DNA of 64,000 nucleotides, from NCBI GenBank assembly GCA_964389315.1, contig CAYMDJ010000001.1, positions 543 to 64,542 on the forward strand, read 5' to 3'. The stretch is from an uncultured archaeon (GTDB lineage Archaea > Aenigmatarchaeota > Aenigmatarchaeia > QMZP01). The number at the start of each line of letters is the position of its first letter. Position 1 is the stretch's first letter. Both the position numbers and the translations under genes were made by a program. Below the pieces are notes generated by a model. That model did not search any database, was not told the DNA's origin, and was given only the letters and a program-made list of their open reading frames with translations. Positions 9,750 to 45,647 of this stretch are shown in pieces.

Positions 9750-10211
9750 TCAATAGATGAGGGCGAGGTCAGCTGATATGTTTGTCATGTAGGTGTCTGA
9801 ACACTCATCACCGCAGCACCAGACAAGCCAGACTTTTTCTGTATCCATGTCTTCTGTGCATGGGACCGTTGTCAGCGTGCCTGCGGATTCTGATTCAAGC
9901 GTCTCGTTGCAATTGTAGATGTCAACGTCCTCACCATCACGGAAATTCATGCTGACGCTTGTCAGGGCCTCGGTTCCAGGATTGTAGAAGGACGTGACCA
10001 GGTTGCCGTCAATGCACTCAGATGGGCCATACTCAATATGGCAGCCTTCATAGGACTCTAGGGAATGGTATTTCCCCGGTGCCGGTGAATTGTAATCTGT
10101 GAACAGGACAGCCGCCCAGATAAGGATTACTGCTGCGATGAGGGATACTGATATGAGCTTCTCATTCCTCTTGATGAATCCTCTGTTCATAAGACTCTCA
10201 GACCGGGACAA
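9750..10211 (-). CDS. Small membrane-anchored extracytoplasmic Cys-rich protein (153 aa). It overlaps the upstream radical-SAM gene by 14 bp.
   Basis: ORF track. It has a charged N-terminus, the TM segment LISVSLIAAVILIWAAVLF, and an ectodomain with 10 Cys plus sequons (NCNET, NIS). Confidence 0.55.
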   Translation of the reverse strand: MSRSESLMNRGFIKRNEKLISVSLIAAVILIWAAVLFTDYNSPAPGKYHSLESYEGCHIEYGPSECIDGNLVTSFYNPGTEALTSVSMNFRDGEDVDIYNCNETLESESAGTLTTVPCTEDMDTEKVWLVWCCGDECSDTYMTNISADLALIY

Positions 10212-11106
10212 GCTCTCTGAACCCCCTTCTATCAGCGTATTCCTTGAATATTCCCTCGCAGATATTAAAGTGTTTGCAGGCCCTGCACTGGGGACCCTTT
10301 ACCCTCCCATGCTTTGCCCTGTTCTTCTCCACATCAAGGTCCCTGAACTCAGGGCCTGCATGATGCTCCTTCATTCTTCCTCTGGTGCTGAACTCGCTCA
10401 GGTGCTTCAGGTCAAAGAGCATGTAGCACATGGGAACGTATCTTATCATGCTGTGATTTATGCCGTGCCTCAGGCCCGCCTGGACAGTGGGCTTCAGGTA
10501 ATCCTTTATCTCCGTGAGTGTGGGAACCACCTCGTCAAAATGCTTCAGGGCATTGCCCCTGGGATGGATGAACATGAATTCCATCCCGTCTGCCCCTAGC
10601 CTGGCATTGTTATCTGCTATCTGGGGAAGGAAGCGGTAATTGTCCTTAACTATCACCGTGTTCGTGCAGATATAGATGTCATTGGAAAGCTCCTTTAGGT
10701 TCCTGAGGCCCTGGGTGGCGTATCTGTAGGAATTTGACCGGGTCAAGTAATCATGAAGCTCCGGGGTGTGGCCGTGTATGGAGAAGACCGCGGAATTAAG
10801 GCCGGCATCAAGAATTCTCTCTGCAAAATCCCTGTAGTAGAACATCTTCCCGTTGGTGGTGAGGCTTATGGTCTCGAATCCGAGCTTCTTTGCATATCTG
10901 ACCAGCGGGATTATGTCCCTCCTTATGGTTGGCTCGCCCCCGAGGAGGTCAACGAAAGTAGAGCCTCTCTTCATGGCCTCAAGAAGCTCCTTCTTGACCT
11001 GCTCGGTGCTCATGGGAGGGAGCGTCCTCTTGTAGCCGCCGTCGTAGCAGAACCTGCAGTTGTTGTTGCATTCATATCCCATTATTATAGAGGTCTTTAT
11101 CTCCAT
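10198..11106 (-). CDS. Radical SAM protein of the CNNNCxxC type, with a C-terminal Cys cluster CRACKHFNIC. It is a paralog of 12813-13652 and 21996-22943.
   Basis: ECNNNCRFC cluster at residues 13-20, a GGEPT motif, and a conserved C-terminus ICEGIFKEYADRRGFRELVPV. The RBS GGAGG sits 5 nt before the ATG. Confidence 0.8.
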   Translation of the reverse strand: MEIKTSIIMGYECNNNCRFCYDGGYKRTLPPMSTEQVKKELLEAMKRGSTFVDLLGGEPTIRRDIIPLVRYAKKLGFETISLTTNGKMFYYRDFAERILDAGLNSAVFSIHGHTPELHDYLTRSNSYRYATQGLRNLKELSNDIYICTNTVIVKDNYRFLPQIADNNARLGADGMEFMFIHPRGNALKHFDEVVPTLTEIKDYLKPTVQAGLRHGINHSMIRYVPMCYMLFDLKHLSEFSTRGRMKEHHAGPEFRDLDVEKNRAKHGRVKGPQCRACKHFNICEGIFKEYADRRGFRELVPV

Positions 11107-11189
11107 GGTTCCTCCGGGCGGGTTTTCTGTGATGGTGTTTCTTTTGTGTTATGGTTTGGATTCAAAAGCAGGATCTTCATACCCCTCTA

Positions 11190-11215
11190 TTGATATTTAA
11201 ATATTAATATCCATT
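11190..11215 (-). promoter_or_regulatory. Archaeal TATA box (TTTAAATA) with a BRE-like context upstream of the radical-SAM gene 10198-11106.
   Basis: The sequence GATATTTAAATATTAATATC lies in the 230-bp intergenic gap. It indicates the 23-kb minus-strand run is more than one transcription unit. Confidence 0.35.
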
Positions 11216-11335
11216 TCTTAATGTGCTACCAACAGCTGATTCTGTGATGATAAGCCAGGTCGTTCTGACTTTTATAGGGGCTGTGTTTCTTATAGAGATG
11301 GGAAAGATTAGGAAAGAGTTGAGTAAAGTTAAGCT

Positions 11336-12787
11336 TTAGACCAGATGCCCAAGACCCCTAAGTGTATCCATTGTTTTATTTTCCACTTCTATCGCGGGGT
11401 TCGAATACATGACGGACATTCTTCTGTTATTCTCTGACCATTCGAACAATTCACCCTTTAGTTCCAGGGTAACTTTTTTCTCGTTATCTATTATGTTAGA
11501 TTGCTCTTTTGGATCGGCCAGTATATCAAACAGCTCTTCTGATTGACTAACTGATGATATATATTTCCACCCATTTCTTCTCACGCTCTGTTTTTGACCC
11601 GATTCTGTCAATTCGCTAAATATCGCATAATCTGATATCAGACTATCATTAATCATTAGTGGAGTCATGCTATTGCCTTGGAACGCATCGCTGGTTTTTA
11701 TTTCAACGATATCTAAAAGCGTTGGCATTATATCGATAAGCGAAACGCTGCTCGATATTCTTGCCGGATGCTGTCCAGGTATTCTAATCAAAAGCGGTAC
11801 ATGTATTATTTCGTCATATAGCTCAATATGCAAAAAACCCCCATGGTCGAGGAACTCCTCGCCGTGGTCAGCAGTGAAGACTATTATGGTCTGGTTTTGC
11901 AATCCAGATTCTTGCAGTGTTTTTATTATCTTGCCGACAGAATCATCCATGTATCTTATCGAGCCGTCATAAAGTGCTACAAGATGATTGAAATCATTGA
12001 TGGAAGATTTGTTGAATCCTGACCAAAAAATGTTCCTCACTACACCAAAGGCCTCGTCTTCGGGGTTGGACCATTTTGAATCAATGTTCATGAACAAATC
12101 CGTTTGTGTCTCCACCAAGCTTCCGTCATATCCAACGTCAAAGAGATTATTATACGGCTCTGGCGGTAAATATGGATCGTGCGTTATATAGGTGTGGAAG
12201 AACATGAAGAATTTTTCATGCTTTCCTCTCAGCCAAGCAAGAGTTTCTTTCAGTATTTCCTCGTTCGTAAAGACGGTGTTTTTGTAGATTTTGTATTCGT
12301 CAAAACCATCCCCGAACCCCAGCATGGGGTCAACGTTTCCTCCCCCCGTGAATGCCACTGTCCGATATCCATTATCCTTCAGTATTTCGGGGAGCGTTGA
12401 TATTGAATCATTCAATCGTTTTATGTTCGTGTTTTGTATGTTTATAATTCCGTGAACAGATGGGTACATGGATGTGAACATGGACATATGAGAAGACGCG
12501 GTAAGTGAGGATTGACTGAAGGCGTTCTCAAACAAAATACTTCCGTTAGCCAGAGCATCTATGTTGGGGCTGGTGTCTCTGTGGTAACCATAACAACCAA
12601 GATGGTCTGCCCTGAGAGTGTCAATTGATATAAGGATGATGTTACAGTCCGGGCATTTGTAGCTTTGATTTTCTGGTATGATTATGAAACCTGAAAGGCT
12701 CAGGGTAAAAAAGTATGAAAAGAGAGCTATGAATATGATAAGCAGCATAAAACCCGCAAGATGATATTCATCCATGTACCTGAACAA
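11336..12787 (-). CDS. Membrane-anchored sulfatase-fold (alkaline-phosphatase superfamily) enzyme with Thr at the nucleophile position. It is likely a phospho-alcohol (phosphoglycerol or phosphoethanolamine type) transferase rather than an FGly sulfatase.
   Basis: N-terminal TM segment, then DTLRADHLGCYGY ... LTASSHMSMFTSMYPSVHG ... TADHGEEF. The C/S-x-P-x-R FGly motif is replaced by T-A-S-S-H. Confidence 0.7.
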   Translation of the reverse strand: MFRYMDEYHLAGFMLLIIFIALFSYFFTLSLSGFIIIPENQSYKCPDCNIILISIDTLRADHLGCYGYHRDTSPNIDALANGSILFENAFSQSSLTASSHMSMFTSMYPSVHGIINIQNTNIKRLNDSISTLPEILKDNGYRTVAFTGGGNVDPMLGFGDGFDEYKIYKNTVFTNEEILKETLAWLRGKHEKFFMFFHTYITHDPYLPPEPYNNLFDVGYDGSLVETQTDLFMNIDSKWSNPEDEAFGVVRNIFWSGFNKSSINDFNHLVALYDGSIRYMDDSVGKIIKTLQESGLQNQTIIVFTADHGEEFLDHGGFLHIELYDEIIHVPLLIRIPGQHPARISSSVSLIDIMPTLLDIVEIKTSDAFQGNSMTPLMINDSLISDYAIFSELTESGQKQSVRRNGWKYISSVSQSEELFDILADPKEQSNIIDNEKKVTLELKGELFEWSENNRRMSVMYSNPAIEVENKTMDTLRGLGHLV

Positions 12788-12812: not shown

Positions 12813-13652
12813 TTATTGAATGGGGGTGAATTCCTTTTCCCCTGACAGGTTCAGGTAGCTCTTCCATATCATGGGGCAGTCCTGCCTGGAGCCACATGTC
12901 TTGCAGGCCTTGGCAAAGGCGAGCTCTGGCCCCTGCTTTGTTACTCCCTTTGCAATCTCCCTGTATCCCTCTGGTAGCGTGCAGAGGGGAAAGTGGAAGA
13001 GTTTTACAGGGATGCCTGCATTGAGGAGGGTGTCTGCTGCCCGGGATGTGTGGGGGACCAGTTTGCTGTATCTGATGAATATCCTTTTCAGGTTAATGAG
13101 GGCGTTCCCGGTGTATTTCATGTTTATGAAGACAACTCGCTCGACTCCAGCAAGGTTTCTGGATATGAAGCGGGCGGTCTCGTCCAGGCTGGCGTAGTTG
13201 AGCCTGCTGACTATTACTCTTAGCTCTACCCTGATTCCCAGGGATGTCAGGGCTTTAATTCCGCGCAGGGTCTGTTCCCAGCTTCCCTTGACCATGGTTA
13301 CTGAGTCGTGGACGGAAGGTAGGTGGCTGTATATCGCTATCCCAACCCTGAAGTTCTTTATTCTCAGATTGGAGAGTCTTTCAGCGAATTCCGGGTAGCT
13401 GAACATCCTGCCGTTGGAGACCAGGAAAAGGAGGGTGTCCGGACGGGTGTCCCTGATGTATGACATCGCCCTGAAGAAGTTTGGGGATATTGTTGGCTCA
13501 CCGCCGCTTATTCCAACGGTATGGCAGTCTTTCGGCAGCCTGTCTATGCACTGTTTTATCGTTTTCCAATGCACGTGGCCGGAAGGTTGGCTGCGGTCTC
13601 TTATGCAGGATATGCAGTTGTTGTTGCAAACCAATGTAAGGGGAATCTCCAT
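12813..13652 (-). CDS. Radical SAM protein of the CNNNCxxC type (paralog family).
   Basis: VCNNNCISC cluster at residues 9-16, GGEPT motif, C-terminal AKACKTCGSRQDCP. Confidence 0.75.
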   Translation of the reverse strand: MEIPLTLVCNNNCISCIRDRSQPSGHVHWKTIKQCIDRLPKDCHTVGISGGEPTISPNFFRAMSYIRDTRPDTLLFLVSNGRMFSYPEFAERLSNLRIKNFRVGIAIYSHLPSVHDSVTMVKGSWEQTLRGIKALTSLGIRVELRVIVSRLNYASLDETARFISRNLAGVERVVFINMKYTGNALINLKRIFIRYSKLVPHTSRAADTLLNAGIPVKLFHFPLCTLPEGYREIAKGVTKQGPELAFAKACKTCGSRQDCPMIWKSYLNLSGEKEFTPIQ

Positions 13653-13711: not shown

Positions 13712-15412
13712 TCATTCCTGGGTATGGTTGTGTGCCCATATGGGATAGGGATATGCCCACGGAGGATAGAGATATATCCTGTCCATGGAAGCGTTAAGGC
13801 CGGGGATTCTTCCTTTTACAGAGTAGAGCGTGTAGGTCAGGTTTTCCAGTGAATATTCGGCGACGGGTACTGTTTCATAAACCCTCAGGAATTCCAGGCA
13901 GGACTGGTTATATGGTGGTATCCTGCATATATAGCCGTCGTAGAAGAAAGCCATGCCCCTGTTTCCGATTATCTCTTCAACCGCGTTGCCATAAAAGGCA
14001 CCATGAAGGGGGACGGGGTTTGCTCCTGGAACGACTGATAGTGCATGATAACTCATGCTGAAAACATAGGCATTGTCAGGGAGTTCGCTGCCTAACATTC
14101 CCATGGCCTTTGTCTCAAGAATCCTTGGTTCGCTATAAAACCCGTATTTTTTTGTCCCAATGGTGTAGCAGCATGTGTTCTCAAGATAATCTCCTCCGGC
14201 AAGCGGGGGGATTGCGAATGATATCAACAGGAGCAGTGAAATTAGGGCCGTAATGAACCTTTTTTTGGTCAGATAAACATCCTGGACCAAAGAAATTCCC
14301 GATGACACAAATAAAAAGAGGAAGGATATTGCAAAGACCAGAAGCATGGGCTGCAGGAACCCGGATACTGCATAAAGACCAATAAAGGATATCGGTATCA
14401 GGCCAATGCTCCAGGGAAAGGGAGTTTTTTTCTGGAGGCCGAGAAAGATTCCTGCTGCTATCAGGATGTTGAACAGAAGTGGGTAATATAAGCCCGAAGC
14501 CATTCCTGCAAGAATCTCTGCTATACCGTTGCTCATGCCAGGGCAGGCTTGAAACTCTCCCAAAACCGAAAAAATTTGCTCATTAAGAACCTGTTGATTA
14601 AGCACGAATTCCGTGTTTATCTGCGTCCACAAGCGCTGCAAATATATTATAAAAAAGGATGAAGAGAGAATAATAGCTGCCCTGAACCTGTAGTCATGGA
14701 GCCTTTTAAGGAGGCTCCTCCTTGAATGGAGCATGATGATTATTGTAGGCAGCATGGCTATGAATTCTATCCTCGCATTCAGTGTGAATGCCAGGGTTAA
14801 CAGAAAGAGGTAAAGGGATTTCTGGTCATCATTCCTTAGGTAAAGGCACAGGCTGGAAAGGGATAGGAGAGCGAAGAAAAGGGCTATCGTGAAATCCTCG
14901 CCCATGGCAGAGGCTGCGACCAGAAAAGGATAGGCAGAAAACAGCGCCGAAGCGTAAAGGGCCGGGCGGGTGTCCTTCATGATCAGATACAGAAGAATGA
15001 AGGCAAGCGGTATGCATAACGTCCCGAAAAGGATTGACGTGTATATGGCAGTGTAATTTCCAAGCCCGAACACCAGGAAGGAGATTGAAAATATTATAAC
15101 AGAACCGAATGGCTTGAAATAGGGATGGCAATCCTCTGTTTCATATCCAGTGCAATAGCATATTTCCGCGTTCCCGTGCATCATCAGGTTCTTTGCAGCA
15201 TTCAGCCTGTAATCCTCGTCGATGAAATTGTGCTGCATCGGGGACGAGAGCCTTAGGAAAAGGCCTGCCGTGGTTATCAGTATCAGCAAAACCCACACCT
15301 CCTTTCTAATCCCCTTCAGGGAAGATGCAAGCGTTCCCCTGTCCATGAAAAGGAGAATGAAAACCAGTACGAGATTCAGCACAGTGCCCAGCATCAAGAA
15401 CGTCATCAGCAT
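13712..15412 (-). CDS. GT-C fold membrane glycosyltransferase (PMT/ArnT-like, multi-pass, 566 aa). It is not AglB, since no WWDYG motif is present.
   Basis: Roughly 12 predicted TM helices. The first extracytoplasmic loop carries the DEDYR acidic motif typical of GT-C enzymes. Confidence 0.55.
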   Translation of the reverse strand: MLMTFLMLGTVLNLVLVFILLFMDRGTLASSLKGIRKEVWVLLILITTAGLFLRLSSPMQHNFIDEDYRLNAAKNLMMHGNAEICYCTGYETEDCHPYFKPFGSVIIFSISFLVFGLGNYTAIYTSILFGTLCIPLAFILLYLIMKDTRPALYASALFSAYPFLVAASAMGEDFTIALFFALLSLSSLCLYLRNDDQKSLYLFLLTLAFTLNARIEFIAMLPTIIIMLHSRRSLLKRLHDYRFRAAIILSSSFFIIYLQRLWTQINTEFVLNQQVLNEQIFSVLGEFQACPGMSNGIAEILAGMASGLYYPLLFNILIAAGIFLGLQKKTPFPWSIGLIPISFIGLYAVSGFLQPMLLVFAISFLFLFVSSGISLVQDVYLTKKRFITALISLLLLISFAIPPLAGGDYLENTCCYTIGTKKYGFYSEPRILETKAMGMLGSELPDNAYVFSMSYHALSVVPGANPVPLHGAFYGNAVEEIIGNRGMAFFYDGYICRIPPYNQSCLEFLRVYETVPVAEYSLENLTYTLYSVKGRIPGLNASMDRIYLYPPWAYPYPIWAHNHTQE

Positions 15413-16546: not shown

Positions 16547-16819
16547 TCAGTATGATTCGTGGCTTGCGTGGGAGGAGTGGGAGGAGTGGGAGCCGTGGCT
16601 GGCGTGGTGGCCGTGCTGGGCGGTGACAGTGCCTGCATTCCAGGATATGTCAAAGCTGTTGGTGTGGTCGGCGGCAACCTCGGGCAGGAATGAGAGTATT
16701 GATATCGATGCCAGGAAGGCGCCAAGGCTGGCTGCCTTGTGCTTGGCAACCCTCCCCCTGTTGTCCAGGAGGAAGTCTGAGAACGTGTTCTTTATCTTGG
16801 GCAGGATTTCCCTCTTCAT
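16547..16819 (-). CDS. Putative precursor peptide or small protein (90 aa) whose C-terminus carries six tandem His-Xaa-Ser triplets (HAS-HGS-HSS-HSS-HAS-HES-Y), following a hydrophobic segment.
   Basis: Translated by hand: MKREILPKIKNTFSDFLLDNRGRVAKHKAASLGAFLASISILSFLPEVAADHTNSFDISWNAGTVTAQHGHHASHGSHSSHSSHASHESY. The RBS AAGGGAG sits 4 nt before the ATG. Confidence 0.6.
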   Translation of the reverse strand: MKREILPKIKNTFSDFLLDNRGRVAKHKAASLGAFLASISILSFLPEVAADHTNSFDISWNAGTVTAQHGHHASHGSHSSHSSHASHESY

Positions 16820-24015: not shown

Positions 24016-24085
24016 TTTCTTTTGTTATTTAAAACGTCATGCTTAAGTGTCCATGATAAGAAGCTTTGAGTTGGTTTTTTAATGA

Positions 24086-27180: not shown

Positions 27181-28384
27181 TCATCACAAGCGAATAACAG
27201 AAAGGGACGATTCTGTTGTCTTTTGTCAGCTGCGCGGTCATACACCTTTCTATGTTATCAATATCTAATGTGTATTTATCTGGCCATGACCTGATATAGA
27301 CATTCAGTTCGCGCGGGCTCTTGTTTTTTAGCACTCTTTTTGCTATAAGTTTCAGTGTAATGGCCTTTCTTCTCTTTAATATGTTTCCCAAAAACATCAG
27401 GTTTTTTGACCTTGATTTCTTGAATACCTCAAAATCGATACCCTCTGACAGGAACTCTATCTTTTTGTTGTTTATAAAAATTGTTATTCTCAGTGAGCAG
27501 GGAAGTATTGTGCTATGGTTTTTAATTAACCTTTTTATTTTCTCCTGCAGAACACACTCCAAAAGAAGCTGTTTCTTACCTATATGTATAGCATTGCTTA
27601 ATACTTTTATTATTTCGGACAGGAATATCCTTTCTGGGTTGCCATGCCTTCCGATATGAACGGCGCTTCTTATTCTAAGTTCGTTTATGTTTCTTTTCAT
27701 GAGGCAGAAATCTATGATATTGGGGATTTCTTTTTCATTCCAGTTTTTTATGGCCATGAAAGAAAATATTGTCATTATTTTCGAATGCTTGAGGTTATCC
27801 ATGGCTGCCATCTTGGCAGGGAGGTTGTCTCCTTCTATCTTTTTCATCAATTTCCTGTCAAGCGAATTGATTGACAGATGAACTGCACCGAGGCCTGCAT
27901 CCTTTAGCTTCCCGACATACCCGGGGCTCGAAAGCTTTATACCGTTTGTGAGAAGGCTTACCGTCTTTCCATTTTTTGATGCGAACCTTATTATCTCAGA
28001 AAGTTCTTTCCTCAGGGCAGGTTCGCCGCCAGAGAGCCTTATGTATTTGCCTCCGAATCTTGCTATCTCTGACTTTATATCTTGCAGGCTCTTTTCCTTC
28101 TCCTTTTTTTTCGGAAGATAACAGAAAAAGCAGTTGTTGTTGCAGTCGTGTGTGAGTGTTATGGTCAGGGAATCAAAAAACTTTCTCTTTCCAGGTTTGT
28201 GGTTGAGTATTTCCCTGTATAACCAGGCATCCTTTTCTATAAGCGACCTTGTTTTCCCATGTGAAGGACATGTTTTAACCATATATATCTTTCCACCCTC
28301 TTCTAAGATGTCTGAATCTATTTTTTCCATGCACACCGGGCAAATGCTTGTTGTCTTTTTTAAAGCTTTTATATTAATCACCAA
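27158..28384 (-). CDS. Radical SAM protein with an N-terminal zinc-ribbon-like motif (CPVC...CPSHG) and a CNNNCxxC cluster.
   Basis: THDCNNNCFFCY cluster, LSGGEPAL motif. It overlaps the upstream B12-rSAM gene by 11 bp. Confidence 0.7.
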   Translation of the reverse strand: MVINIKALKKTTSICPVCMEKIDSDILEEGGKIYMVKTCPSHGKTRSLIEKDAWLYREILNHKPGKRKFFDSLTITLTHDCNNNCFFCYLPKKKEKEKSLQDIKSEIARFGGKYIRLSGGEPALRKELSEIIRFASKNGKTVSLLTNGIKLSSPGYVGKLKDAGLGAVHLSINSLDRKLMKKIEGDNLPAKMAAMDNLKHSKIMTIFSFMAIKNWNEKEIPNIIDFCLMKRNINELRIRSAVHIGRHGNPERIFLSEIIKVLSNAIHIGKKQLLLECVLQEKIKRLIKNHSTILPCSLRITIFINNKKIEFLSEGIDFEVFKKSRSKNLMFLGNILKRRKAITLKLIAKRVLKNKSPRELNVYIRSWPDKYTLDIDNIERCMTAQLTKDNRIVPFCYSLVMNEKYNNI

Positions 28385-29888
28385 GCGACCGTCTATTAAA
28401 AATTCTTTTCAATGTAAAGTATATATAAAGGCGCGGCAGGCACATCTTCTTCCTTCCGCTGAAATTTATCCTTCTTTTCCTCGATAAGAAATCCCTTGGT
28501 TTCCTTACAACCAACATGAACGTGTAAAGGGGTTTCGGAGGCAGGAACCTGTGGATGTTGTGCCTTATGAGGAATGATGATAGCCTGCCGGGAACCATAT
28601 TCAGGACGTAGAGCGAATTGACAGACTTGGCAAGTTCCCTGTTGAAGGTGTCCCCCTTATGTGTGAAGAAGCTCGTATTCTCTGATTCCTCTATCCTATT
28701 CATCATCTCATCGTCCAGAAGGCCCATCTGCCTTGCTATCTTCACTATCTCTGTCTTGGGGAAATACCTGAGCCAGTATGTCTGGACGAATTCCACGCCG
28801 TTCTCGCTGTAGAACCTGGCCATCTCAAGCACGTCATCGCTCTTCTGCAGCGGGAGGCCTACCATGTTGTCAGTGGTTATGTGTATGCTCTCCTTCTTGA
28901 ACAGCCTTATTGCCTTCCTGGTGTCTTTTGTGGAGCATCTCCTGTTGAGGATGTTTCTTCCCAACTCCTTGTTGTGGGTCTGGACGCCCATCTCGATGGC
29001 CACACAACCTGCTTTTCTAAGCATGGATGCTGTGTCTTCCCTGACATTAGCAGGGTATATCCAGCAAAAGAAGGGGAGGCCAATCTCCTTCCCGTATCTT
29101 TCTGAGAACTCCCTCAGCCAGGCATGGTCGTGATTGAAGGTCTCGTCGTGGAATATTATCTCCCTGAATCCCGCCCTCTTGGCCAGCCTGAGCTCCTCTA
29201 TGACATTGCCTACGCTCCGCCTGCGCAGGTATTTGCCCTTGCCCATGTAAAGCTTCTTCATGTAGGAGTTGTTGCAGTAGGTGCACGAGAACGGGCACCC
29301 CCTACTCGTTATGGTGGTATACCTGTCAAAGAATCTGGGGACTATCTCGCTGAATATGGACTTGTCAGGGAACGGGAGGGAATCGAGGTCTTGTATAAGG
29401 GGCCTTACCGGATTCCTGTATATCTTTCTGCCCTTTTTGGACCAGACGTTGGCTATCCTTCGGGTGGAGCGTCCTGACTCGAGTGCGTCCGTGAGTTCCA
29501 GAAGGGCATGCTCGCCCTCACCTACCACTACGAAATCAACGAAATCCTTCCTTATAACCCGCCCGGGAACGGACGTAGGGTGTATGCCGCCGAACACTAT
29601 CGGGACTTTGGTGTGTTTCTTTATCTCCCTTGCAATCCTGCATGCCCAGGAATAGTTGTCTGATATTACAGAGAAGCACACCAAATCCGGATTAAGTTCC
29701 TTAATCTCTTTTAGCAGGATTTTTTTGAAACCAATGACCCTATGGAGCCACCCGGCCCTTATTACAGAGTCCATGAAGAGCATGGGATCGAAAACGAGCT
29801 CTGTCTGGTGGCCGGCTTGCTTCAGGACCGCTGAGAGATACTCGACCCCCAGGCAGTCTGTCTCCGGGTGCACAAAAACCACCTTCAT
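28374..29888 (-). CDS. Cobalamin (B12)-binding radical SAM enzyme (class B, methyltransferase-like).
   Basis: N-terminal Rossmann-like B12-binding region (MKVVFVHPETDCLGVEYLSAVLKQAGH ... VVVGEGEH), then the CPFSCTYC rSAM cluster. Confidence 0.75.
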   Translation of the reverse strand: MKVVFVHPETDCLGVEYLSAVLKQAGHQTELVFDPMLFMDSVIRAGWLHRVIGFKKILLKEIKELNPDLVCFSVISDNYSWACRIAREIKKHTKVPIVFGGIHPTSVPGRVIRKDFVDFVVVGEGEHALLELTDALESGRSTRRIANVWSKKGRKIYRNPVRPLIQDLDSLPFPDKSIFSEIVPRFFDRYTTITSRGCPFSCTYCNNSYMKKLYMGKGKYLRRRSVGNVIEELRLAKRAGFREIIFHDETFNHDHAWLREFSERYGKEIGLPFFCWIYPANVREDTASMLRKAGCVAIEMGVQTHNKELGRNILNRRCSTKDTRKAIRLFKKESIHITTDNMVGLPLQKSDDVLEMARFYSENGVEFVQTYWLRYFPKTEIVKIARQMGLLDDEMMNRIEESENTSFFTHKGDTFNRELAKSVNSLYVLNMVPGRLSSFLIRHNIHRFLPPKPLYTFMLVVRKPRDFLSRKRRINFSGRKKMCLPRLYIYFTLKRIFNRRSLGD

Positions 29889-30989
29889 CTGACCACTGAT
29901 ATAAGATATAAACGTTTGTTATTAATCTTTAATATGAAGGCTTCCCATGTTTTCTGGACAGGTTTGAGGGTCGCTGGTTATAAAATGGGGAGGAGATTCT
30001 CGTTCCCTCTTCCGATGCCGGTAAACCTTGCCATTGTTCCCACAGGCAGGTGCAACTCCATGTGCAGGACATGTAACATATGGAAGACTCCTGTTAGTGA
30101 TGAGCTCGATGCTGGTGAGTGGGACAGGATATTCAAATCCATCGGGAGGTCTCATCCCTGGGTAACGGCTTCTGAAGGCGAGCCCTTCCTGTCAAAGGAC
30201 CTTGTCGAGATAACAAGGAACCTCGTGGAGCACACGGACCCGCAGATAATGGTTTTTCCCACCAACGGGATTCTGACCGAGAAGATAACGGATGACGTCA
30301 GGGAGATTTTGGGGTTTTATGGCGGCATACTCATAATAAATTTCTCCCTTGACGGCGTCGGGAATCTGCATGACGAGATACGTGGGGTCAGGGGGAATTT
30401 CAGGAGGGTTGTTGACAGCGTATCTGCAATGAAGGACGTCAAAAGGGGTTCTGATAACCTGGTGGTTGGGATAAACACGGTGGTATCCAAACACAACATA
30501 AAAAAAATTGATGAGATATCTGACTTCGTTAAGAATGAGCTGAAGCCGGACTCTCATATCTTTGAGATTGCAGATAACAGGGAGGCTCTCAACAACGCCG
30601 GGATGGACCTGAGGCCTGGTTGCCAGGAGTATCTGGATGCCATTGGCAGGGTATCTGGAGATTCCAACGTCTTCCCTACAGGGTTCTTCAGGAAGAGATA
30701 CTACAGGCTGGTTGAAGAGATGCTCCTGAAAGGCAGGGGGATTATCCCGTGCTATGCGGGCATCGCATCAGCGCAGATATCATCAACAGGAGAGGTATGG
30801 GCATGCTGCAGGATGTGCGAGTCAATGGGGAACCTGAGGGAGAATGGTTATGATTTCAGGAAGGTGTGGAAAAGCAGGCAGGCAATGGATGTGAGGAGGG
30901 GCATAAAGGAGAGGAAGTGCTGGTGCACATCAGCCAACGCGAACTACACGAACATATTATGTAGTTTCATAAGGCTTGCCGGAGTTTAG
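29868..30989 (+). CDS. Radical SAM/SPASM enzyme. The true start is probably the internal Met near 29934 or 29987, which would avoid the divergent overlap with the B12-rSAM gene.
   Basis: GRCNSMCRTC cluster, SEGEPFL motif, and C-terminal CCRMCESMGN ... CWCTSANANY. An AT-rich divergent promoter (ATAAGATATAAAC, TTATTAATCTTTAAT) lies at 29889-29935. Confidence 0.75.
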   Translation: MHKNHLHLTTDIRYKRLLLIFNMKASHVFWTGLRVAGYKMGRRFSFPLPMPVNLAIVPTGRCNSMCRTCNIWKTPVSDELDAGEWDRIFKSIGRSHPWVTASEGEPFLSKDLVEITRNLVEHTDPQIMVFPTNGILTEKITDDVREILGFYGGILIINFSLDGVGNLHDEIRGVRGNFRRVVDSVSAMKDVKRGSDNLVVGINTVVSKHNIKKIDEISDFVKNELKPDSHIFEIADNREALNNAGMDLRPGCQEYLDAIGRVSGDSNVFPTGFFRKRYYRLVEEMLLKGRGIIPCYAGIASAQISSTGEVWACCRMCESMGNLRENGYDFRKVWKSRQAMDVRRGIKERKCWCTSANANYTNILCSFIRLAGV

Positions 30990-31833
30990 GATTATGGATG
31001 TATCAGTAGGTGTGATGGCTCACAACGAGGAGAAAAACATAGGCAGTCTTCTGGATTCGCTTATAAACCAGGAAGAGGAGATTGTGAGGATAATGGAGAT
31101 TATCGTTGTGAGCTCCGGCTCTGTTGACAGGACGGACAGAATAGTTGAGAGCTTTTGCAGGGCTGACCGGAGGGTCAGGCTTGTAAAGGAGCCTGAGAGG
31201 AGGGGGAAATCGAATGCGATAAACCTTTTTCTGGAGAGGAGCAGAGGTGATGTCAACGTTCTTGTCAGCGGCGATGTTGTTCCAGGAAGGAATTCTGTTG
31301 AAAGGGTGTGCTCTATGCTTGTTGGAAATGTTGGAATCGCTGTCGGTAGGGTGGTACCAGAGGAGAGCGGAAGCTTGTTGGGGAGGGTTGTTGGCCTTGA
31401 GTGGAGGATTCATCATGAAGTTTCACTGAAAAGGCCGAAGTTCGGTGAGATGATAGCCTTCAGGGGGGTTGGCAAGATTGCAGAAACATCGGTTGATGAG
31501 GAATTCATAGGTATGCTCGTAGTAAAGTCAGGGCTTGAATCGGTGTATGTCCCCGGAGCCGTGGTAATGAACCGAGGCCCCAGGACAATGAAGGATTTCA
31601 TAAAGCAGAGGAGGAGAATCTATTCCGGTCATTTGGAGCTTTTCAGGACAGGGTATGAACCGGCAACCGTGAAACTCCTTCCTGTGCTGAGGGGGTTCAT
31701 GAAGTCAGGCGGCGCCGGGGCGGGTGTATTAATTTCAGCAGTGCTTCTGGAGGCAGTTTCCAGGGCGCTTGGCTTCTACGATTTTGTGTTCAACAGGGGG
31801 AGGCACATGGTCTGGGATATGGTAAAGAGGTGA
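30976..31833 (+). CDS. Glycosyltransferase family 2.
   Basis: VGVMAHNEEKNIGSLLDSL ... IIVVSSGSVDRTDRI. GT-A fold with DxD-type motifs. Confidence 0.7.
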   Translation: MPEFRIMDVSVGVMAHNEEKNIGSLLDSLINQEEEIVRIMEIIVVSSGSVDRTDRIVESFCRADRRVRLVKEPERRGKSNAINLFLERSRGDVNVLVSGDVVPGRNSVERVCSMLVGNVGIAVGRVVPEESGSLLGRVVGLEWRIHHEVSLKRPKFGEMIAFRGVGKIAETSVDEEFIGMLVVKSGLESVYVPGAVVMNRGPRTMKDFIKQRRRIYSGHLELFRTGYEPATVKLLPVLRGFMKSGGAGAGVLISAVLLEAVSRALGFYDFVFNRGRHMVWDMVKR

Positions 31834-31839
31834 GGGCTT

Positions 31840-32742
31840 ATGAAAAAACCGGTTGTTAGCGTTATTGTTGTGGTTTATAATGAAGAAACGTATATCGGGA
31901 AGTGCATCGAATCTATCCTGCGCCAGTCGTTTGGTGATTTTGAACTTATAGTTGTTGATGCCGCCTCAACGGACAGGACGCAGGAGATAGTCCGGGGGTT
32001 CGGAGACAAGAGGATAAGATATTTCAGGCTAAGTGAAAGGGTCAATATAGCAAAATCCAGAAACTTCGGGATAGGGGCATCAAGAGGGGGATATGTTTTC
32101 TTTACAGATGGGGATTGCTCACCCGCAAGAGGATGGATCAAGGAAGGCGTCAGGTGCCTGAAGGAGCAGGGGGTTGTAGGCTGTGAGGGCAGGACTGTTT
32201 ATGTTTCAAGCCGATACCGGCCCGGCCTGATGGAGAACGTGGTGTATAACAATGGGGGTGGTTTTTTTCCAACGAACAACGTGGCATACAAGAGGGCGGT
32301 CTTTGACGAGGCGGGCTTCTTTGACGAATCCCTGGATGTGGCAGAGGACACTGATATGGGTACGAGGGCATCCAGGCTGGGTGAAATTGTTTTTGTAAAT
32401 GAAATGCTGGTCATTCATGAAAAGAAGACGCTTTCCATGGGGTCGTTTTTCAGGAGGGTATACGTGACAGATAGCGTAGTCAGGATGGTTAAAAGGCATG
32501 GCAGATGCCGGGTTCGCGGACCGCGCGGGATTCCTTTTTATAATATTGGGAGGGTGGTTTTCCCATTCTATTATTTCGTTATGTTTTTCCCCCCGCTGCT
32601 CATAATTGTTCTAATGTTCAGAAAAATTAAAATGGGCAGCCTGAAGGATTTCCTGATGATTCCGCTGTATTATGTGCGGGTTGTTTTTTTCAGGTTTTTT
32701 GTCTGGAAAACGGCAATAAAGGAAAGGTCCTTTTTTATATGA
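31840..32742 (+). CDS. Glycosyltransferase family 2 with a C-terminal hydrophobic segment.
   Basis: VSVIVVVYNEETYIGKCIESIL ... LIVVDAASTDRTQEI ... FFTDGDCSP. Confidence 0.7.
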   Translation: MKKPVVSVIVVVYNEETYIGKCIESILRQSFGDFELIVVDAASTDRTQEIVRGFGDKRIRYFRLSERVNIAKSRNFGIGASRGGYVFFTDGDCSPARGWIKEGVRCLKEQGVVGCEGRTVYVSSRYRPGLMENVVYNNGGGFFPTNNVAYKRAVFDEAGFFDESLDVAEDTDMGTRASRLGEIVFVNEMLVIHEKKTLSMGSFFRRVYVTDSVVRMVKRHGRCRVRGPRGIPFYNIGRVVFPFYYFVMFFPPLLIIVLMFRKIKMGSLKDFLMIPLYYVRVVFFRFFVWKTAIKERSFFI

Positions 32743-33790
32743 GAGCTGTCCTCAGAAGTGTTTTTGGATTATAAACTATGCGATGCACCAGGAAGCATGG
32801 GTGTATGCAGCTGCAATTCCTAATCTCCCTCCTCCTCTTTTCAGCCATTTCGGAGAACCAGAGCCTCCTGAAATCATAGTTGAAATCCCTCAGGTTGCCG
32901 ACCGGCCCCGTTGATTCGCAAAGCCTAACGTCCCCGTCAGGTTCAATGACGCCTATAGTGTTTCCTGCCAGGCACCTGAAACCAAACCCCTGTCCCATGA
33001 TTCCCGTTTCTATAAGACTGTAAATTTTTCGCTTGCCCTTCAGGTTAAGCCCAAGGAAATGCACTTTTTCTTTTGAAAGATAATAAATGTCATATCCGAG
33101 AAGAATCTTGTAAAGGGTTGCCCATTGCCGGGGCGTGGGGGATTCCTCCGAGGCTCTGCCTGCCTTGTTCCTTATTGGTGAGACCGAGTGGTAATTGATG
33201 CCTTGCCTTGTCTTTATGAAATCCATCAGTTTCGGTATCTCACTGTAATTCCTTCTGGAGACCACTGTGTTTATCATGATGGAGAGGTTCGGGTATCTCT
33301 CCTTAAGTTTAACAGCGCCCTCGATGGTTTTTAATGTTTTTCTGAATCCTCCCCGAACACCCCTTATATCATCATGGGTCTTTCCCACACCGTCAAGGGA
33401 TGGTGCCAGGATTATCCTGGTTCTGGCGCAGGTTTTCAACATTCCCTCTGTTTTTTCCAGTATGTTTCTTGTGGCGAGGCCGTTGGTTGGTATGAATATC
33501 AAATTCGGTCTGTTGTTTCTGTAGAAAGCGTGGCAGATTTCCGGTAGGTCTTCCCTCAGGAATGGTTCCCCGCCCGAGACGAGAAGAGAGTAGAATCTGC
33601 CCATTCCTGTGGATGTCATTCTTATCTCTTCCAGGGAGAGCTCTTTGATTGGTTTGTTGATTCTGTCCCTGTAAAAACATCCACTGCATGATGAGTTGCA
33701 CTTGTTCGTAACGAAAAAAATGACCTCGTGTGGAAGGTGTCCCTTTCTGATCAGGGTGAGATGACCCGAGGTTACGTTTTTTATGTTCAT
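32735..33790 (-). CDS. Radical SAM/SPASM enzyme.
   Basis: CNSSCSGCFY cluster, VSGGEPFL motif, C-terminal CSCIHPCFLV. It is convergent with the GT2 gene and overlaps it by 8 bp. Confidence 0.75.
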   Translation of the reverse strand: MNIKNVTSGHLTLIRKGHLPHEVIFFVTNKCNSSCSGCFYRDRINKPIKELSLEEIRMTSTGMGRFYSLLVSGGEPFLREDLPEICHAFYRNNRPNLIFIPTNGLATRNILEKTEGMLKTCARTRIILAPSLDGVGKTHDDIRGVRGGFRKTLKTIEGAVKLKERYPNLSIMINTVVSRRNYSEIPKLMDFIKTRQGINYHSVSPIRNKAGRASEESPTPRQWATLYKILLGYDIYYLSKEKVHFLGLNLKGKRKIYSLIETGIMGQGFGFRCLAGNTIGVIEPDGDVRLCESTGPVGNLRDFNYDFRRLWFSEMAEKRRREIRNCSCIHPCFLVHRIVYNPKTLLRTALI

Positions 33791-45640: not shown

Positions 45641-45647
45641 AGGTTGC

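What the first reader, a model, noticed from the sequence alone, without database searches (positions are those of the whole stretch)
9750..33790. Ten radical-SAM genes in 24 kb, interleaved with glycosyltransferases, surface glycoproteins and adenylating enzymes: an unusually dense PTM/biosynthetic super-cluster
The radical-SAM ORFs are 10198-11106, 12813-13652, 15486-16517, 18447-19886, 21996-22943, 27158-28384, 28374-29888 (B12-binding), 29868-30989, 32735-33790 and 38811-39827. All carry CxxxCxxC plus a GGEP-type motif. At least five have SPASM-like C-terminal Cys clusters. Four (10198, 12813, 21996, 27158) share an uncommon CNNNC-x(1)-xC cluster spelling, and three of those are close paralogs with a conserved ...ICEGxxKEYAxRxGxxExVPV C-terminus. 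They are co-linear with a GT-C glycosyltransferase, two GT2s, a Thr-type sulfatase-fold ectoenzyme, a prepilin peptidase, a TtuA-like PP-loop ATPase, an AsnB-like enzyme, DUF362 and secreted Cys-rich glycoproteins. Most sit on one strand with 8-23 bp overlaps, which suggests translational coupling. This reads like a pathway that installs radical-mediated modifications (crosslinks, methylations, epimerisations) on secreted proteins, peptides or glycans of an archaeon. Biochemical characterisation of such archaeal systems is scarce.
Basis: partly seen in the sequence, partly recalled or inferred. Interest (0 to 1): 0.85.

Follow-up and report, generated by a model that had tools for sequence, protein, structure and literature searches.

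The report
Expanded archaeal His-Xaa-Ser radical-SAM maturation system

Summary
All ten radical-SAM (rSAM) ORFs are real: nine lie in 9750-33790 and the tenth at 38811. They are not housekeeping enzymes.

The minus-strand block 9750-22943 is an HXS-type system. It contains:
- HxsB (above NCBIfam's cut-off), an HxsC-like rSAM, HxsD, and an unannotated 90-aa HxsA at 16547-16819 that ends in six tandem His-Xaa-Ser repeats.
- Two HxsC4-like paralogs, each overlapping a downstream Cys-rich secreted protein.
- A further rSAM with C-terminal Cys motifs immediately after HxsA.
- An A24 aspartyl peptidase, a GT-C glycosyltransferase and a non-formylglycine sulfatase-fold enzyme.

This layout recurs in relatives, and one relative also carries ten rSAM genes. 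Across 84 HxsB loci, HxsD and HxS-repeat peptides recur in DPANN archaea, CPR bacteria and other bacteria. The A24 peptidase is almost archaea-specific (33/45 archaeal loci versus 1/39 others). The B12/HMPTM-like/DUF362 genes are linked to the system in the closest relative. AsnB, the PP-loop enzyme, the GT2s and the sulfatase are not.

The likely mechanism is leader-guided radical maturation of HxsA in the cytoplasm, then export, leader removal and surface display. An antiviral role is only an analogy.

Verdict: a new variant of a known kind.

The parts
16547..16819 (-). It has a Lys-rich conserved leader (res 1-33), a hydrophobic segment (34-47), a VAA|D site, and a 40-aa core ending in six tandem His-Xaa-Ser repeats plus Tyr.
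   Evidence: ORF with AAGGGAG upstream of the ATG. HxS run. Full-length matches to NCBIfam HxsA4 (37.5 bits, cut-off 55) and HxsA3 (30.7 bits). Called as a gene in six metagenome contigs. 111 cluster representatives at E<=1e-3 among 1.84 billion proteins. Leader consensus LPxIKKxIxxFLxSEEGKIxK shared with 42 homologs.
18447..19886 (-). HxsB: SPASM radical-SAM maturase with an N-terminal three-strand/three-helix domain of the kind that binds precursor leaders (RRE-like).
   Evidence: TIGR03978 395.7 bits, above the cut-off of 370. Pfam SPASM 22.7 bits. AF2 model pLDDT 87.4. Best fold match is CteB 5WGG over 468 columns, then anSME, TigE, ChlB and SuiB.
16884..17351 (-). HxsD: small partner protein with an archaeal-type conserved C-terminal tail, DDPEGIAxPW.
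12813..13652 (-). HxsC-like radical-SAM enzyme (CNNNCISC cluster motif).
   Evidence: Best NCBIfam hit is TIGR03977 HxsC, 205.7 bits, near full length (5-262 against 31-288 of 292) but below the cut-off of 267.9. Orthologs lie next to HxsA in L010 and L019 and in the same position in L007, L089 and L090.
21996..22943 (-). HxsC4-like radical-SAM paralog. It overlaps the start of the 678-aa secreted protein by 8 bp.
   Evidence: NF038332 HxsC4 170 bits (cut-off 500) and HxsC 113.6 bits. 36% identical to 10198. Homologs in 25/45 archaeal and 23/39 other HxsB loci, often in tandem arrays.
19967..22003 (-). 678-aa exported protein with 18 Cys, 11 N-x-S/T sequons and a Cys-rich C-terminal region. 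Candidate second substrate.
   Evidence: Translation and counts. Conserved in the same position in L007, L089 and L090. Only a weak IG_AIR9 hit.
17374..18411 (-). A24-family (prepilin-peptidase type) membrane aspartyl protease. Candidate leader peptidase for HxsA and/or the Cys-rich proteins.
   Evidence: PF01478 39.4 bits. D20 and G78-D79 invariant in 29/29 homologs. Present in 33/45 archaeal HxsB loci against 1/39 bacterial/other loci, typically in the order A24-HxsD-HxsB-HxsA.
15486..16517 (-). Radical-SAM enzyme with C-terminal Cys motifs (SPASM/twitch-like by eye), encoded immediately after HxsA.
   Evidence: PF04055 85 bits and Fer4_12. No NCBIfam family reached. Homologs directly follow HxsA in L029, L035, L048, L049 and L089.
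13712..15412 (-). GT-C fold (PMT_2) polytopic glycosyltransferase. Candidate extracytoplasmic glycosylation step.
   Evidence: PF13231 28.3 bits against a cut-off of 26.1. PMT_2 genes recur in L007, L008, L089 and L090 and in 8/45 archaeal loci at >=40 bits.
11336..12787 (-). Membrane-anchored sulfatase-fold (alkaline-phosphatase superfamily) enzyme. It has LTASSH in place of the formylglycine motif. Lineage-specific accessory.
   Evidence: PF00884 182 bits. No [CS]x[PA]xR anywhere in the protein. Absent from L089, L090 and L007.
10198..11106 (-). HxsC4-like radical-SAM paralog. It overlaps the start of the 153-aa Cys-rich protein by 14 bp.
   Evidence: NF038332 139 bits. Orthologs (389-629 bits) precede a sec153 homolog in L008, L009, L010, L019, L089, L090, L093, L094 and L095.
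9750..10211 (-). 153-aa signal-anchored protein with six invariant Cys. Candidate substrate or partner of the preceding rSAM.
   Evidence: Alignment A2: C57, C66, C118, C132, C133 and C137 invariant. Lies next to an rSAM gene in 11 of the 12 other loci that hold a homolog; the exception is L096. No Pfam or NCBIfam hit.
1..9549 (-). Giant exported protein. It runs off the window, with more than 3,183 aa seen, 143 N-x-S/T sequons and 79 Cys. Conserved downstream neighbour; membership of the system is unproven.
   Evidence: Open frame. Start inferred from the L001 gene call. Giant genes of 5,524 aa and 4,076 aa occupy the same position in L089 and L090.
28374..29888 (-). B12-binding radical-SAM enzyme (probable methyltransferase class). 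First gene of an overlapping trio.
   Evidence: PF02310 65.6 bits and PF04055 83.2 bits. No NCBIfam cut-off reached. B12-rSAMs flank or interrupt the Hxs genes in L007, L089 and L090 and occur in 11/45 archaeal loci.
27158..28384 (-). Zn-ribbon plus radical-SAM enzyme of the HMPTM/Tes/TrsS family.
   Evidence: PF23545 63.7 bits and PF04055 88.3 bits. TrsS 152 bits and Tes 140 bits, far below their cut-offs of 490 and 450. Closest solved structure is GDGT-MAS 7TOL, 113 bits. Three copies lie directly upstream of the Hxs genes in L089.
26050..27180 (-). DUF362 protein. Overlaps the previous gene by 23 bp.
   Evidence: PF04015 147.7 bits. Ortholog (585 bits) sits between the HMPTM-like and B12 genes in L089.
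23002..26029 (.). PP-loop amidotransferase (WbuX-like, minus strand) and AsnB-type amidotransferase (plus strand). A low-GC insert between the two conserved blocks, probably sugar or glycan chemistry.
   Evidence: WbuX 91 bits and asn_synth_AEB 240 bits, both below cut-off. GC 0.41 against 0.53-0.57 in the flanks. No homolog in any of the 84 related loci.
29868..33790 (.). Two paralogous SPASM-type radical-SAM enzymes (29868-30989 +, 32735-33790 -; 31% identical) bracketing two GT2 glycosyltransferases. No room for a precursor peptide gene. Loosely linked accessory module.
   Evidence: Homologs of the 29868 type lie beside the A24 gene in L008, L093 and L094 and beside a sec153 homolog in L091. 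The GT2s are not found in related loci.
38811..39827 (+). Tenth radical-SAM gene, outside the cluster and separated from it by housekeeping-type genes. Not counted as part of the system.
   Evidence: PF04055 80.4 bits. Best NCBIfam hit is the PTO1314 family, 98.7 bits against a cut-off of 306. Intervening genes.

Best explanation
The block 9750-22943 (minus strand), probably together with the overlapping B12/HMPTM-like/DUF362 trio at 26050-29888, is an expanded archaeal (DPANN-type) His-Xaa-Ser system. It is a leader-guided radical-SAM machine that matures exported products.

**Shown here**
- The parts list.
- Family assignments for HxsB, HxsD, the HxsC-like enzyme and HxsA.
- Conservation of this gene set in relatives.
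- The conserved leader / hydrophobic segment / HxS-core architecture of HxsA.
- Intact catalytic aspartates in the A24 peptidase.
- Absence of a formylglycine motif in the sulfatase-fold protein.

**Inferred sequence of events**
1. HxsA is made with its Lys-rich leader in the cytoplasm.
2. HxsB binds that leader through its N-terminal RRE-like domain. Together with HxsC-HxsD (a complex shown only for the E. coli proteins) it installs a radical cross-link or similar change in the HxS repeats.
3. The post-HxsA rSAM, the two HxsC4-like paralogs and the B12/HMPTM-type enzymes add further modifications. They may act on HxsA or on the two Cys-rich secreted proteins whose genes overlap the HxsC4-like genes.
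4. The product is exported. The leader is removed at the cytoplasmic face by the A24 peptidase, after the invariant Gly33 just before the hydrophobic segment. Alternatively, signal peptidase cuts after VAA50.
5. Outside the cell, the GT-C transferase and the sulfatase-fold enzyme decorate it.
6. The His/Ser-rich product stays at the cell surface.

**Biological role.** By analogy with bacterial HXS it is a barrier to viral genome entry; I put this at about 0.35. Metal binding or host attachment are alternatives.

**Not part of the conserved system.** AsnB, the PP-loop enzyme and the GT2s are neighbouring glycan genes in a variable low-GC island.

**What the confidence covers.** The figure of 0.72 refers to the identity of the system and the general maturation-and-export scheme. 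It does not cover the antiviral role or the A24 cleavage step.
For: **Family membership**
- HxsB scores above its curated cut-off.
- HxsD carries PF27806, and all 112 of its homologs do too.
- The HxsC model is the best hit for 12813 and covers it almost end to end.
- HxsA has six tandem HxS repeats and full-length matches to HxsA3/HxsA4.

**Conservation**
- Synteny holds at 77-81% HxsB identity.
- L089 keeps every gene from the HMPTM-like enzymes to sec153 plus the giant ORF, with ten rSAM genes.
- In 84 loci at >=40 bits, HxsD is present in 39/45 archaeal and 25/39 other loci. An ORF of <=200 aa with at least three tandem HxS repeats turned up in 38 of the 84 loci. Tandem HxsC-type paralogs are common.

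**Mechanistic features**
- The HxsA leader is conserved across archaea and bacteria.
- The HxsB model aligns end to end with CteB, including its N-terminal domain.
- A24 has invariant D20 and D79 and is strongly associated with archaeal loci.
- Gly precedes the hydrophobic segment in 20/20 archaeal HxsA sequences, against 8/23 bacterial ones.
- Gaps along the strand are at most 80 bp, apart from two of 200 and 229 bp.

**Bacterial precedent.** In E. coli HXS, HxsB/C/D-dependent N-terminal processing, a +8 Da change in an HxS repeat and export are all required for defence (PMC13128918).
Against: **Curated thresholds**
- HxsC (205.7 against 267.9), HxsD (46.6 against 50) and HxsA4 (37.5 against 55) fall below NCBIfam cut-offs.
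- TIGR03979 (classic HxsA) does not match.

**Differences from the bacterial prototype**
- Gene order differs from the bacterial D-B-C-A.
- This HxsA has no peptidoglycan-binding domain.
- The predicted core has no Lys or Arg and three acidic residues. The electrostatic DNA-binding model proposed for E. coli HxsA therefore transfers poorly.

**Weak points in the mechanism**
- The HxsA leader is 33 aa, longer than typical class III signal peptides.
- The Gly/A24 correlation is confounded by phylogeny (archaea against bacteria).
- In L008, L093 and L094, HxsB, A24, two HxsC4-like rSAMs and sec153 occur with no HxsA or HxsD within 8-10 kb. HxsB may therefore have another substrate.
- The HMPTM-like enzyme's closest solved relative acts on lipids.

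Nothing here shows expression, modification or any phenotype.
Confidence: 0.72

Rival explanations
1. The whole 24 kb is one pathway whose rSAM enzymes, glycosyltransferases and amidotransferases jointly modify the large secreted glycoproteins (the 678-aa protein and the giant ORF) or their glycans.
For: Giant ORFs and the 678-aa protein keep their positions in L089, L090 and L007. The giant ORF carries 143 sequons. GT-C genes recur. Two HxsC4-like genes overlap Cys-rich secreted protein genes.
Against: AsnB, the PP-loop enzyme, both GT2s and the sulfatase have no counterpart in any of the 84 related loci. They sit in or beside a low-GC insert. The most widely conserved core, HxsD-HxsB-HxsA, needs none of the large proteins; many loci consist only of A24-HxsD-HxsB-HxsA.
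Confidence: 0.12
2. This is a RiPP natural-product cluster. After leader and signal removal, HxsA yields a small, freely secreted, modified His/Ser-rich peptide of about 40 aa. The peptide acts as a metallophore or an antimicrobial or signalling molecule, not as a surface barrier.
For: The precursor is short, with a conserved leader and a variable repeat core. An AxA-like site (VAA|D) follows the hydrophobic segment. The maturase is of the CteB type with an RRE-like domain. The core has 9 His in 40 residues and no basic residues. B12-rSAM tailoring enzymes are typical of RiPPs.
Against: No transporter/protease (PCAT-type) or immunity gene is present in the conserved block. The dedicated protease is a membrane prepilin-type peptidase, which leaves a hydrophobic N-terminus. 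The only studied HXS product is a retained envelope protein (PMC13128918).
Confidence: 0.2
3. The B12 / HMPTM-like / DUF362 trio (26050-29888) is a membrane-lipid tailoring module related to tetraether synthase and GDGT-modifying enzymes. It merely neighbours the HXS genes.
For: The closest solved structure for 27158 is GDGT-MAS 7TOL at 113 bits. NCBIfam Tes scores 140 bits. The best hits for the B12 enzyme include HpnJ and the 'lipid biosynthesis B12-binding/radical SAM protein'.
Against: All scores are far below the family cut-offs. In L089 three HMPTM-like genes, DUF362 and two B12 genes are contiguous and co-directional with the Hxs genes. B12-rSAMs sit inside the Hxs block in L007.
Confidence: 0.25
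4. The cluster is a chance accumulation of unrelated or housekeeping radical-SAM genes (MoaA, TYW1, QueE or activase-type enzymes, or an anaerobic sulfatase maturase serving the adjacent sulfatase).
For: Generic low-level similarity of every rSAM core to MoaA, NirJ, AhbD and similar families. A sulfatase-fold gene lies among SPASM-type enzymes.
Against: No housekeeping family cut-off is approached: MoaA scores at most 95 bits against 231-325, TYW1 34 against 318, NrdG at most 31 against 131. The sulfatase-fold protein has no C/S-x-P/A-x-R motif. The layout is conserved in relatives.
Confidence: 0.02

Closest known systems
Bacterial HXS antiphage system (HxsA/B/C/D). Predicted by Haft & Basu 2011 (J Bacteriol 193:2745; cited from memory and via PMC13128918). 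Characterised in E. coli by Li et al., Nat Commun 2026 (PMC13128918).
   Same: Both have an HxsB SPASM rSAM, an HxsC-type rSAM, the small HxsD protein and an exported protein with tandem His-Xaa-Ser repeats encoded together. In both, the precursor needs N-terminal processing and is destined for the cell envelope.
   Different: - This HxsA is 90 aa with a conserved Lys-rich leader and no peptidoglycan-binding domain. [quoted passage not shown]
- The gene order is different.
- The archaeal version adds an A24 peptidase, a GT-C transferase, two HxsC4-like paralogs paired with Cys-rich secreted proteins, another rSAM with C-terminal Cys motifs, and B12- and HMPTM-type rSAMs.
- The host is a DPANN-like archaeon with no murein or periplasm.
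- That paper's HxsA-based survey placed 99.7% of systems in Pseudomonadota.
NCBIfam variant families HxsA3 (NF038309), HxsA4 (NF038313) and HxsC4 (NF038332)
   Same: These are the best matches for the window's HxsA (full-length alignment) and for the two paralogs 10198 and 21996. They show that short-leader HxsA variants and extra HxsC types are already catalogued.
   Different: All scores are well below the narrow curated cut-offs (37.5 against 55; 139 and 170 against 500). The window proteins are therefore relatives, not members, of those specific families.
SPASM/RRE radical-SAM RiPP maturases such as CteB (SCIFF thioether synthase, PDB 5WGG), SuiB and anSME
   Same: The HxsB model superposes on CteB over its whole length, including the N-terminal three-strand/three-helix domain. 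It has the C-terminal Cys clusters of a SPASM domain.
   Different: Sequence identity is only 19%. The HxS core contains no Cys, so the chemistry cannot be a Cys-to-C-alpha thioether. The reaction is unknown; E. coli HxsA shows +8 Da.
Archaeal class III signal peptidases (FlaK, PibD, EppA; peptidase family A24)
   Same: Two invariant catalytic aspartates, including a G-D motif. The enzyme is a polytopic membrane protein. The candidate substrate has a charged N-terminal leader, then a small residue, then a hydrophobic helix.
   Different: The enzyme is dedicated to an rSAM maturation locus rather than to a pilus or archaellum locus. The candidate leader is 33 aa and strongly conserved. No cleavage has been demonstrated.

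Membership tests
His-Xaa-Ser (HXS) system | HxsB: SPASM radical-SAM maturase matching TIGR03978 at or above its cut-off | tested here: met
   395.7 bits against a cut-off of 370, covering residues 19-471. Relatives are named HxsB by NCBI and JGI.
His-Xaa-Ser (HXS) system | HxsC: second radical-SAM enzyme matching TIGR03977 at or above its cut-off | tested here: inconclusive
   Protein 12813-13652 has HxsC as its best hit, near full length, but at 205.7 bits against 267.9. Paralogs 10198 and 21996 score 83 and 114 bits.
His-Xaa-Ser (HXS) system | HxsD small protein (TIGR03976 / Pfam PF27806) | tested here: met
   TIGR03976 scores 46.6 bits against 50, just below cut-off. PF27806 is recorded on the identical protein and on all 112 homologs.
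His-Xaa-Ser (HXS) system | Adjacent exported protein with tandem His-Xaa-Ser repeats (HxsA) | tested here: met
   Six consecutive HxS repeats at the C-terminus of the 90-aa ORF 16547-16819, located between HxsD and the next rSAM. Models HxsA4 and HxsA3 match below cut-off. The classic HxsA model (TIGR03979) does not appear among the hits.
His-Xaa-Ser (HXS) system | [quoted passage not shown] | tested here: not met
   The order here is HxsB-A24-HxsD-HxsA-rSAM-GT-C-HxsC. There are at least 12 co-directional genes. HxsA is 90 aa with no room for such a domain.
His-Xaa-Ser (HXS) system | rSAM-dependent +8 Da modification in an HxS repeat, and antiviral activity | not testable with these tools
   This needs mass spectrometry and infection assays. 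The SHRSS motif of E. coli HxsA is absent; the nearest sequence is SHSSHSS.
Leader-guided rSAM RiPP pathway | Short precursor with a conserved leader and a variable core, plus a leader-binding (RRE-type) domain in a maturase | tested here: met
   Leader consensus across 43 sequences. HxsB N-terminal strands 20-25, 28-33 and 38-42 plus three helices, aligned with CteB end to end. HxsD itself is not PqqD-like. Actual binding was not tested.
Class III signal peptide / A24 prepilin peptidase pair | Two catalytic Asp in the peptidase; substrate with a charged leader, a small residue at -1 and a hydrophobic helix | tested here: inconclusive
   D20 and D79 are invariant in 29/29 homologs. Gly at the predicted -1 position in 20/20 archaeal HxsA sequences. 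However, the leader is unusually long, the correlation is confounded by phylogeny, and there is no cleavage assay.
Anaerobic sulfatase maturase (anSME) plus formylglycine sulfatase pair | C/S-x-P/A-x-R formylglycine motif in the sulfatase | tested here: not met
   No such motif anywhere in the protein. LTASSH occupies the equivalent position. The anSME model scores 89 bits against 349 for HxsB.
Housekeeping radical-SAM families (MoaA, TYW1, NrdG/PflA-type activases) | Score at or above the curated NCBIfam cut-off | tested here: not met
   Best MoaA score is 95 bits against a cut-off of 231. TYW1 scores 34 against 318. NrdG scores at most 31 against 131. QueE is not among the best 25 families listed per protein.
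Tetraether lipid synthase Tes / GDGT-MAS | NF045702 at or above 450 bits | tested here: not met
   Protein 27158-28384 scores 140 bits in three stretches. The match to 7TOL covers only the rSAM core, residues 74-228.

The most novel reading that the evidence does not exclude
In DPANN archaea the HxS-repeat precursor is a prepilin-like substrate. The locus-encoded A24 peptidase removes the conserved 33-residue leader after it has guided radical-SAM modification. What remains is a 57-residue, cross-linked and possibly glycosylated His/Ser-rich 'mini-pilin' or membrane-anchored brush on the cell surface. It acts as an antiviral entry barrier or as a metal- or host-binding structure. The HxsC4-like enzymes separately cross-link dedicated Cys-rich surface proteins. 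This would be the first radical-SAM-matured surface filament or effector in archaea. It would also extend HXS immunity to archaea and CPR bacteria, which lack a murein-containing periplasm of the kind the E. coli effector anchors to.
Probability: 0.2. Interest if true: 0.8.

Novelty: new variant of a known kind. Interest (0 to 1): 0.6.

Why it matters
HXS has only just been shown, in E. coli, to be an immune system that stops phage DNA at the envelope. That study's HxsA-based survey placed it almost entirely in Pseudomonadota. Its chemistry (+8 Da) and its processing protease are unknown.

This window and the 84 related loci show a much larger, differently built branch of the family in DPANN archaea, CPR bacteria and other uncultured groups. 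These are organisms with small genomes, yet they spend 15-20 kb and up to ten radical-SAM genes on it.

The archaeal version supplies several testable leads:
- a clear leader/core precursor;
- a candidate dedicated leader peptidase;
- candidate glycosylation steps;
- extra maturase-substrate pairs.

If the function is antiviral, it would be an envelope-level defence in archaea. If it is not, it shows that HxS-repeat maturation has a broader role than defence.

Tried and rejected
- **Genome scan with HxsB alone.** The single-protein scan of genome contigs found nothing. The scan with the alignment worked.
- **PADLOC 2023.** It has no HXS models. It gave only weak rSAM-core matches to prokaryotic viperins (pVip, at most 90 bits). 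I do not read these as viperin membership.
- **Shared repeat or domain in sec153, sec678, the giant ORF and HxsA.** Rejected: no significant pairwise similarity.
- **anSME-sulfatase pairing.** Rejected because the formylglycine motif is absent.
- **HxsA in the Iainarchaeota-type locus L008.** None found within 10 kb. This is what led to the two-module view.
- **Haft & Basu 2011 (PMC3133131).** Not held in the library. No paper on archaeal HXS was found.
- **tRNA scan.** No tRNA genes in the window.

Full report

The ORF map and translations reproduce all ten ORFs. Each has a single CxxxCxxC motif, and each passes Pfam's Radical_SAM cut-off. Nine lie within 9750-33790. The tenth (38811-39827) is separated from them by four housekeeping-type genes: an NAD(P)HX dehydratase by NCBIfam, and an aldehyde dehydrogenase, an acyl-CoA synthetase-like protein and an aminotransferase that I identified by eye from their translations.

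- a sulfatase-fold protein;
- a PMT_2 GT-C glycosyltransferase;
- an A24 peptidase;
- AsnB;
- DUF362;
- two GT2s;
- a B12-binding domain.

The PP-loop protein resembles WbuX sugar amidotransferases more than TtuA. The window is archaeal. It holds Orc1/Cdc6, family-B DNA polymerase, archaeal-type PheRS and an Hjc-like resolvase. The closest named PolB relatives are Aenigmatarchaeota at 53-59% identity, so this is a DPANN-type organism. GC falls from 0.53-0.57 in the flanks to 0.41-0.50 across the cluster.

**2.

NCBIfam placed 18447-19886 in HxsB at 395.7 bits, above the cut-off of 370. HxsC was the best hit for 12813-13652, and HxsC4 was the best hit for 10198 and 21996. HxsD was the only hit for the 155-aa protein at 16884-17351.

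A six-frame search for H-x-S runs then found one place in the whole window. It lies in the 366-bp 'intergenic' gap between HxsD and the next rSAM. There a 90-aa ORF (16547-16819, minus strand, with AAGGGAG upstream of its ATG) ends in HAS-HGS-HSS-HSS-HAS-HES-Y.

This ORF is supported in three ways:
- It aligns end to end with NCBIfam HxsA4 and HxsA3.
- It is called as a gene on six metagenome contigs that carry the identical locus.
- It has 111 relatives among 1.84 billion cluster representatives.

The core of the finding is therefore a His-Xaa-Ser system. Haft and Basu predicted this system in 2011. In 2026 it was shown in E. coli to block phage DNA entry. [quoted passage not shown]

**3. Conservation**

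The closest relatives (HxsB 77-81% identical; L007, L089, L090) keep the same co-directional order. That order is: HxsC4-like rSAM, 678-aa protein, HxsB, A24, HxsD, HxsA, (rSAM), GT-C, HxsC, HxsC4-like rSAM, sec153, giant ORF.

L089 also has three HMPTM-like rSAMs, DUF362 and two B12-rSAMs directly upstream. That again makes ten rSAM genes, within about 19 kb.

A scan of one genome per species returned 80 further HxsB loci. They come from Iainarchaeota, Aenigmatarchaeota, Woesearchaeota, Nanoarchaeota and Nanohaloarchaea, and also from Saccharibacteria, Parcubacteria, Elusimicrobia, Myxococcota and other bacteria. I searched the window's proteins against all ORFs of these loci. The table shows how many loci hold a homolog at >=40 bits.

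| Window gene | Archaeal loci (of 45) | Other loci (of 39) |
|---|---|---|
| HxsD | 39 | 25 |
| A24 peptidase | 33 | 1 |
| HxsC4-like rSAM, 21996 type | 25 | 23 |
| HxsC4-like rSAM, 10198 type | 15 | 16 |
| B12-rSAM | 11 | 5 |
| GT-C | 8 | 1 |
| AsnB, PP-loop, GT2s, sulfatase | 0 | 0 |

HxS-repeat peptides appear in 38 of the 84 loci. The HxsC4-type paralogs often form arrays of three to six.

A high rSAM density is thus a property of this branch of the HXS family. The conserved unit runs from about 9750 to 22943, plus 26050-29888. The low-GC AsnB/PP-loop insert and the GT2 genes are local additions.

**4. Anatomy of the precursor and its enzymes**

*HxsA.* Forty-three HxsA sequences share a leader, LPxIKKxIxxFLxSEEGKIxK. 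After it come a small residue, a hydrophobic stretch of about 18 residues, an AxA-like site, a short linker and the HxS repeats. The repeats usually end in Tyr or Trp.

*HxsB.* The model (pLDDT 87.4) superposes on the sactipeptide synthase CteB over 468 columns. This includes an N-terminal three-strand/three-helix domain of the type that binds precursor leaders.

*A24 peptidase.* Both catalytic aspartates are kept in all 29 homologs. All 20 archaeal HxsA sequences have Gly just before the hydrophobic segment, against 8 of 23 bacterial ones; the rest have Ala or Ser. This fits prepilin-type cleavage at the cytoplasmic face. However, the leader is long for a class III signal, and the correlation is confounded by phylogeny.

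*Sulfatase-fold protein.* It has no formylglycine motif, so none of the SPASM enzymes is needed as a sulfatase maturase.

*sec153 family.* Six Cys are invariant. In 11 of the 12 other loci that hold a homolog, it lies next to an rSAM gene, usually the 10198 type just upstream.

*Two modules.* In L008, L093 and L094, HxsB, A24, two HxsC4-like genes and sec153 occur without HxsA or HxsD nearby. In L010 and L019, an HxsD-HxsC-HxsA set lies a few kilobases away on the other strand. The window therefore looks like a fusion of two modules, and HxsB may serve more than one substrate.

**5. Mechanism and its limits**

I take the most likely course to be the following:
1. Leader-guided radical modification of the HxS core in the cytoplasm by HxsB and HxsC-HxsD.
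2. Additional tailoring by the other rSAMs.
3. Export.
4. Leader removal by the A24 peptidase, or by signal peptidase after VAA50.
5. Extracellular decoration by the GT-C and sulfatase-fold enzymes.
6. Retention at the surface.

Only the parts list, family assignments, conservation and motifs are shown here. Every step of the course above is inferred.

The antiviral role is an analogy and rests on weak ground:
- This HxsA lacks a peptidoglycan-binding domain.
- Its core has no Lys or Arg and three acidic residues, so the electrostatic DNA-binding idea proposed for E. coli does not carry over directly.
- Nine His in 40 residues would equally suit metal binding.
- PADLOC (2023) has no HXS models and gave only rSAM-core level matches.

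**6. Comparison with known systems, and novelty**

The system is a member of the HXS kind. HxsB, HxsD and an HxS-repeat protein are all met. HxsC is a best hit but below cut-off. It does not have the bacterial architecture, because the gene order, the four-gene limit and the peptidoglycan-binding domain are all not met.

NCBI and JGI already label the archaeal HxsB and HxsD proteins, and NCBIfam lists HxsA3, HxsA4 and HxsC4 variants. I found no paper that treats archaeal, DPANN or CPR HXS systems or their extra components.

I therefore rate it a new variant of a known kind. Its interest is moderate to high. It provides a concrete, conserved and experimentally approachable archaeal counterpart to a newly described bacterial defence system. 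It also offers a candidate for the unknown processing protease and several new maturase-substrate pairs.

Noticed in passing
window 1-9549 (-): A giant open frame runs off the window start. More than 3,183 aa are visible, with 143 N-x-S/T sequons and 79 Cys. It begins with a signal-anchor-like N-terminus about 200 bp downstream of sec153. Genes of 5,524 aa and 4,076 aa occupy the same position in L089 and L090.
   Followed up: partly
window 24001-28000: This is the lowest GC in the window (0.41, against 0.53-0.57 in the flanks). It covers AsnB, DUF362 and the HMPTM-like rSAM. AsnB and the PP-loop gene have no counterpart in relatives, which suggests a recent insertion into the cluster.
   Followed up: partly
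window 42312-49238: Orc1/Cdc6 (42312-43514) and family-B DNA polymerase (46563-49238) lie close together. Cumulative GC skew peaks at about 44-46 kb and then falls. A replication origin may lie here.
   Followed up: no
window 16884-17351 (-), residues 118-130: Archaeal HxsD proteins carry a conserved C-terminal tail, LDDPEGIAxPW (D121, G124, I125 and W129 invariant in 48 sequences). It lies beyond the region matched by the 90-position TIGR03976 model (residues 20-103). It may be a docking peptide.
   Followed up: partly
L008 14544-14999; L009 8994-9431; L019 14506-14964: Iainarchaeota sec153 homologs start with K/R-rich segments ending in G or A directly before the hydrophobic helix (for example KRYG|LPIAF). 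These look like class III signal peptides. The A24 peptidase may process these proteins as well as, or instead of, HxsA.
   Followed up: no
L022, L023, L049, L050, L057, L080: Some Woesearchaeota and CPR loci carry five to seven tandem HxsC4-like rSAM paralogs next to HxsD-HxsB-HxsA. Some HxsA homologs have very long repeat tracts: 50 HxS units in a 239-aa protein in L057, and a 504-aa protein in L038.
   Followed up: no
window 29868-29888: The GTG start listed for the plus-strand rSAM (29868) overlaps the start of the divergent B12-rSAM gene by 21 bp. The true start is probably the internal ATG about 22 codons downstream (MKASHVF...). Likewise, public gene calls give 390 aa rather than 408 aa for the HMPTM-like protein.
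   Followed up: no
window 38811-39827 (+) and 39836-40186 (+): The isolated tenth rSAM (best NCBIfam hit the PTO1314 family, far below cut-off) is followed 8 bp later by a small HTH-like protein. Homologs of this rSAM appear in multiple copies near HxsB in L046.
   Followed up: no
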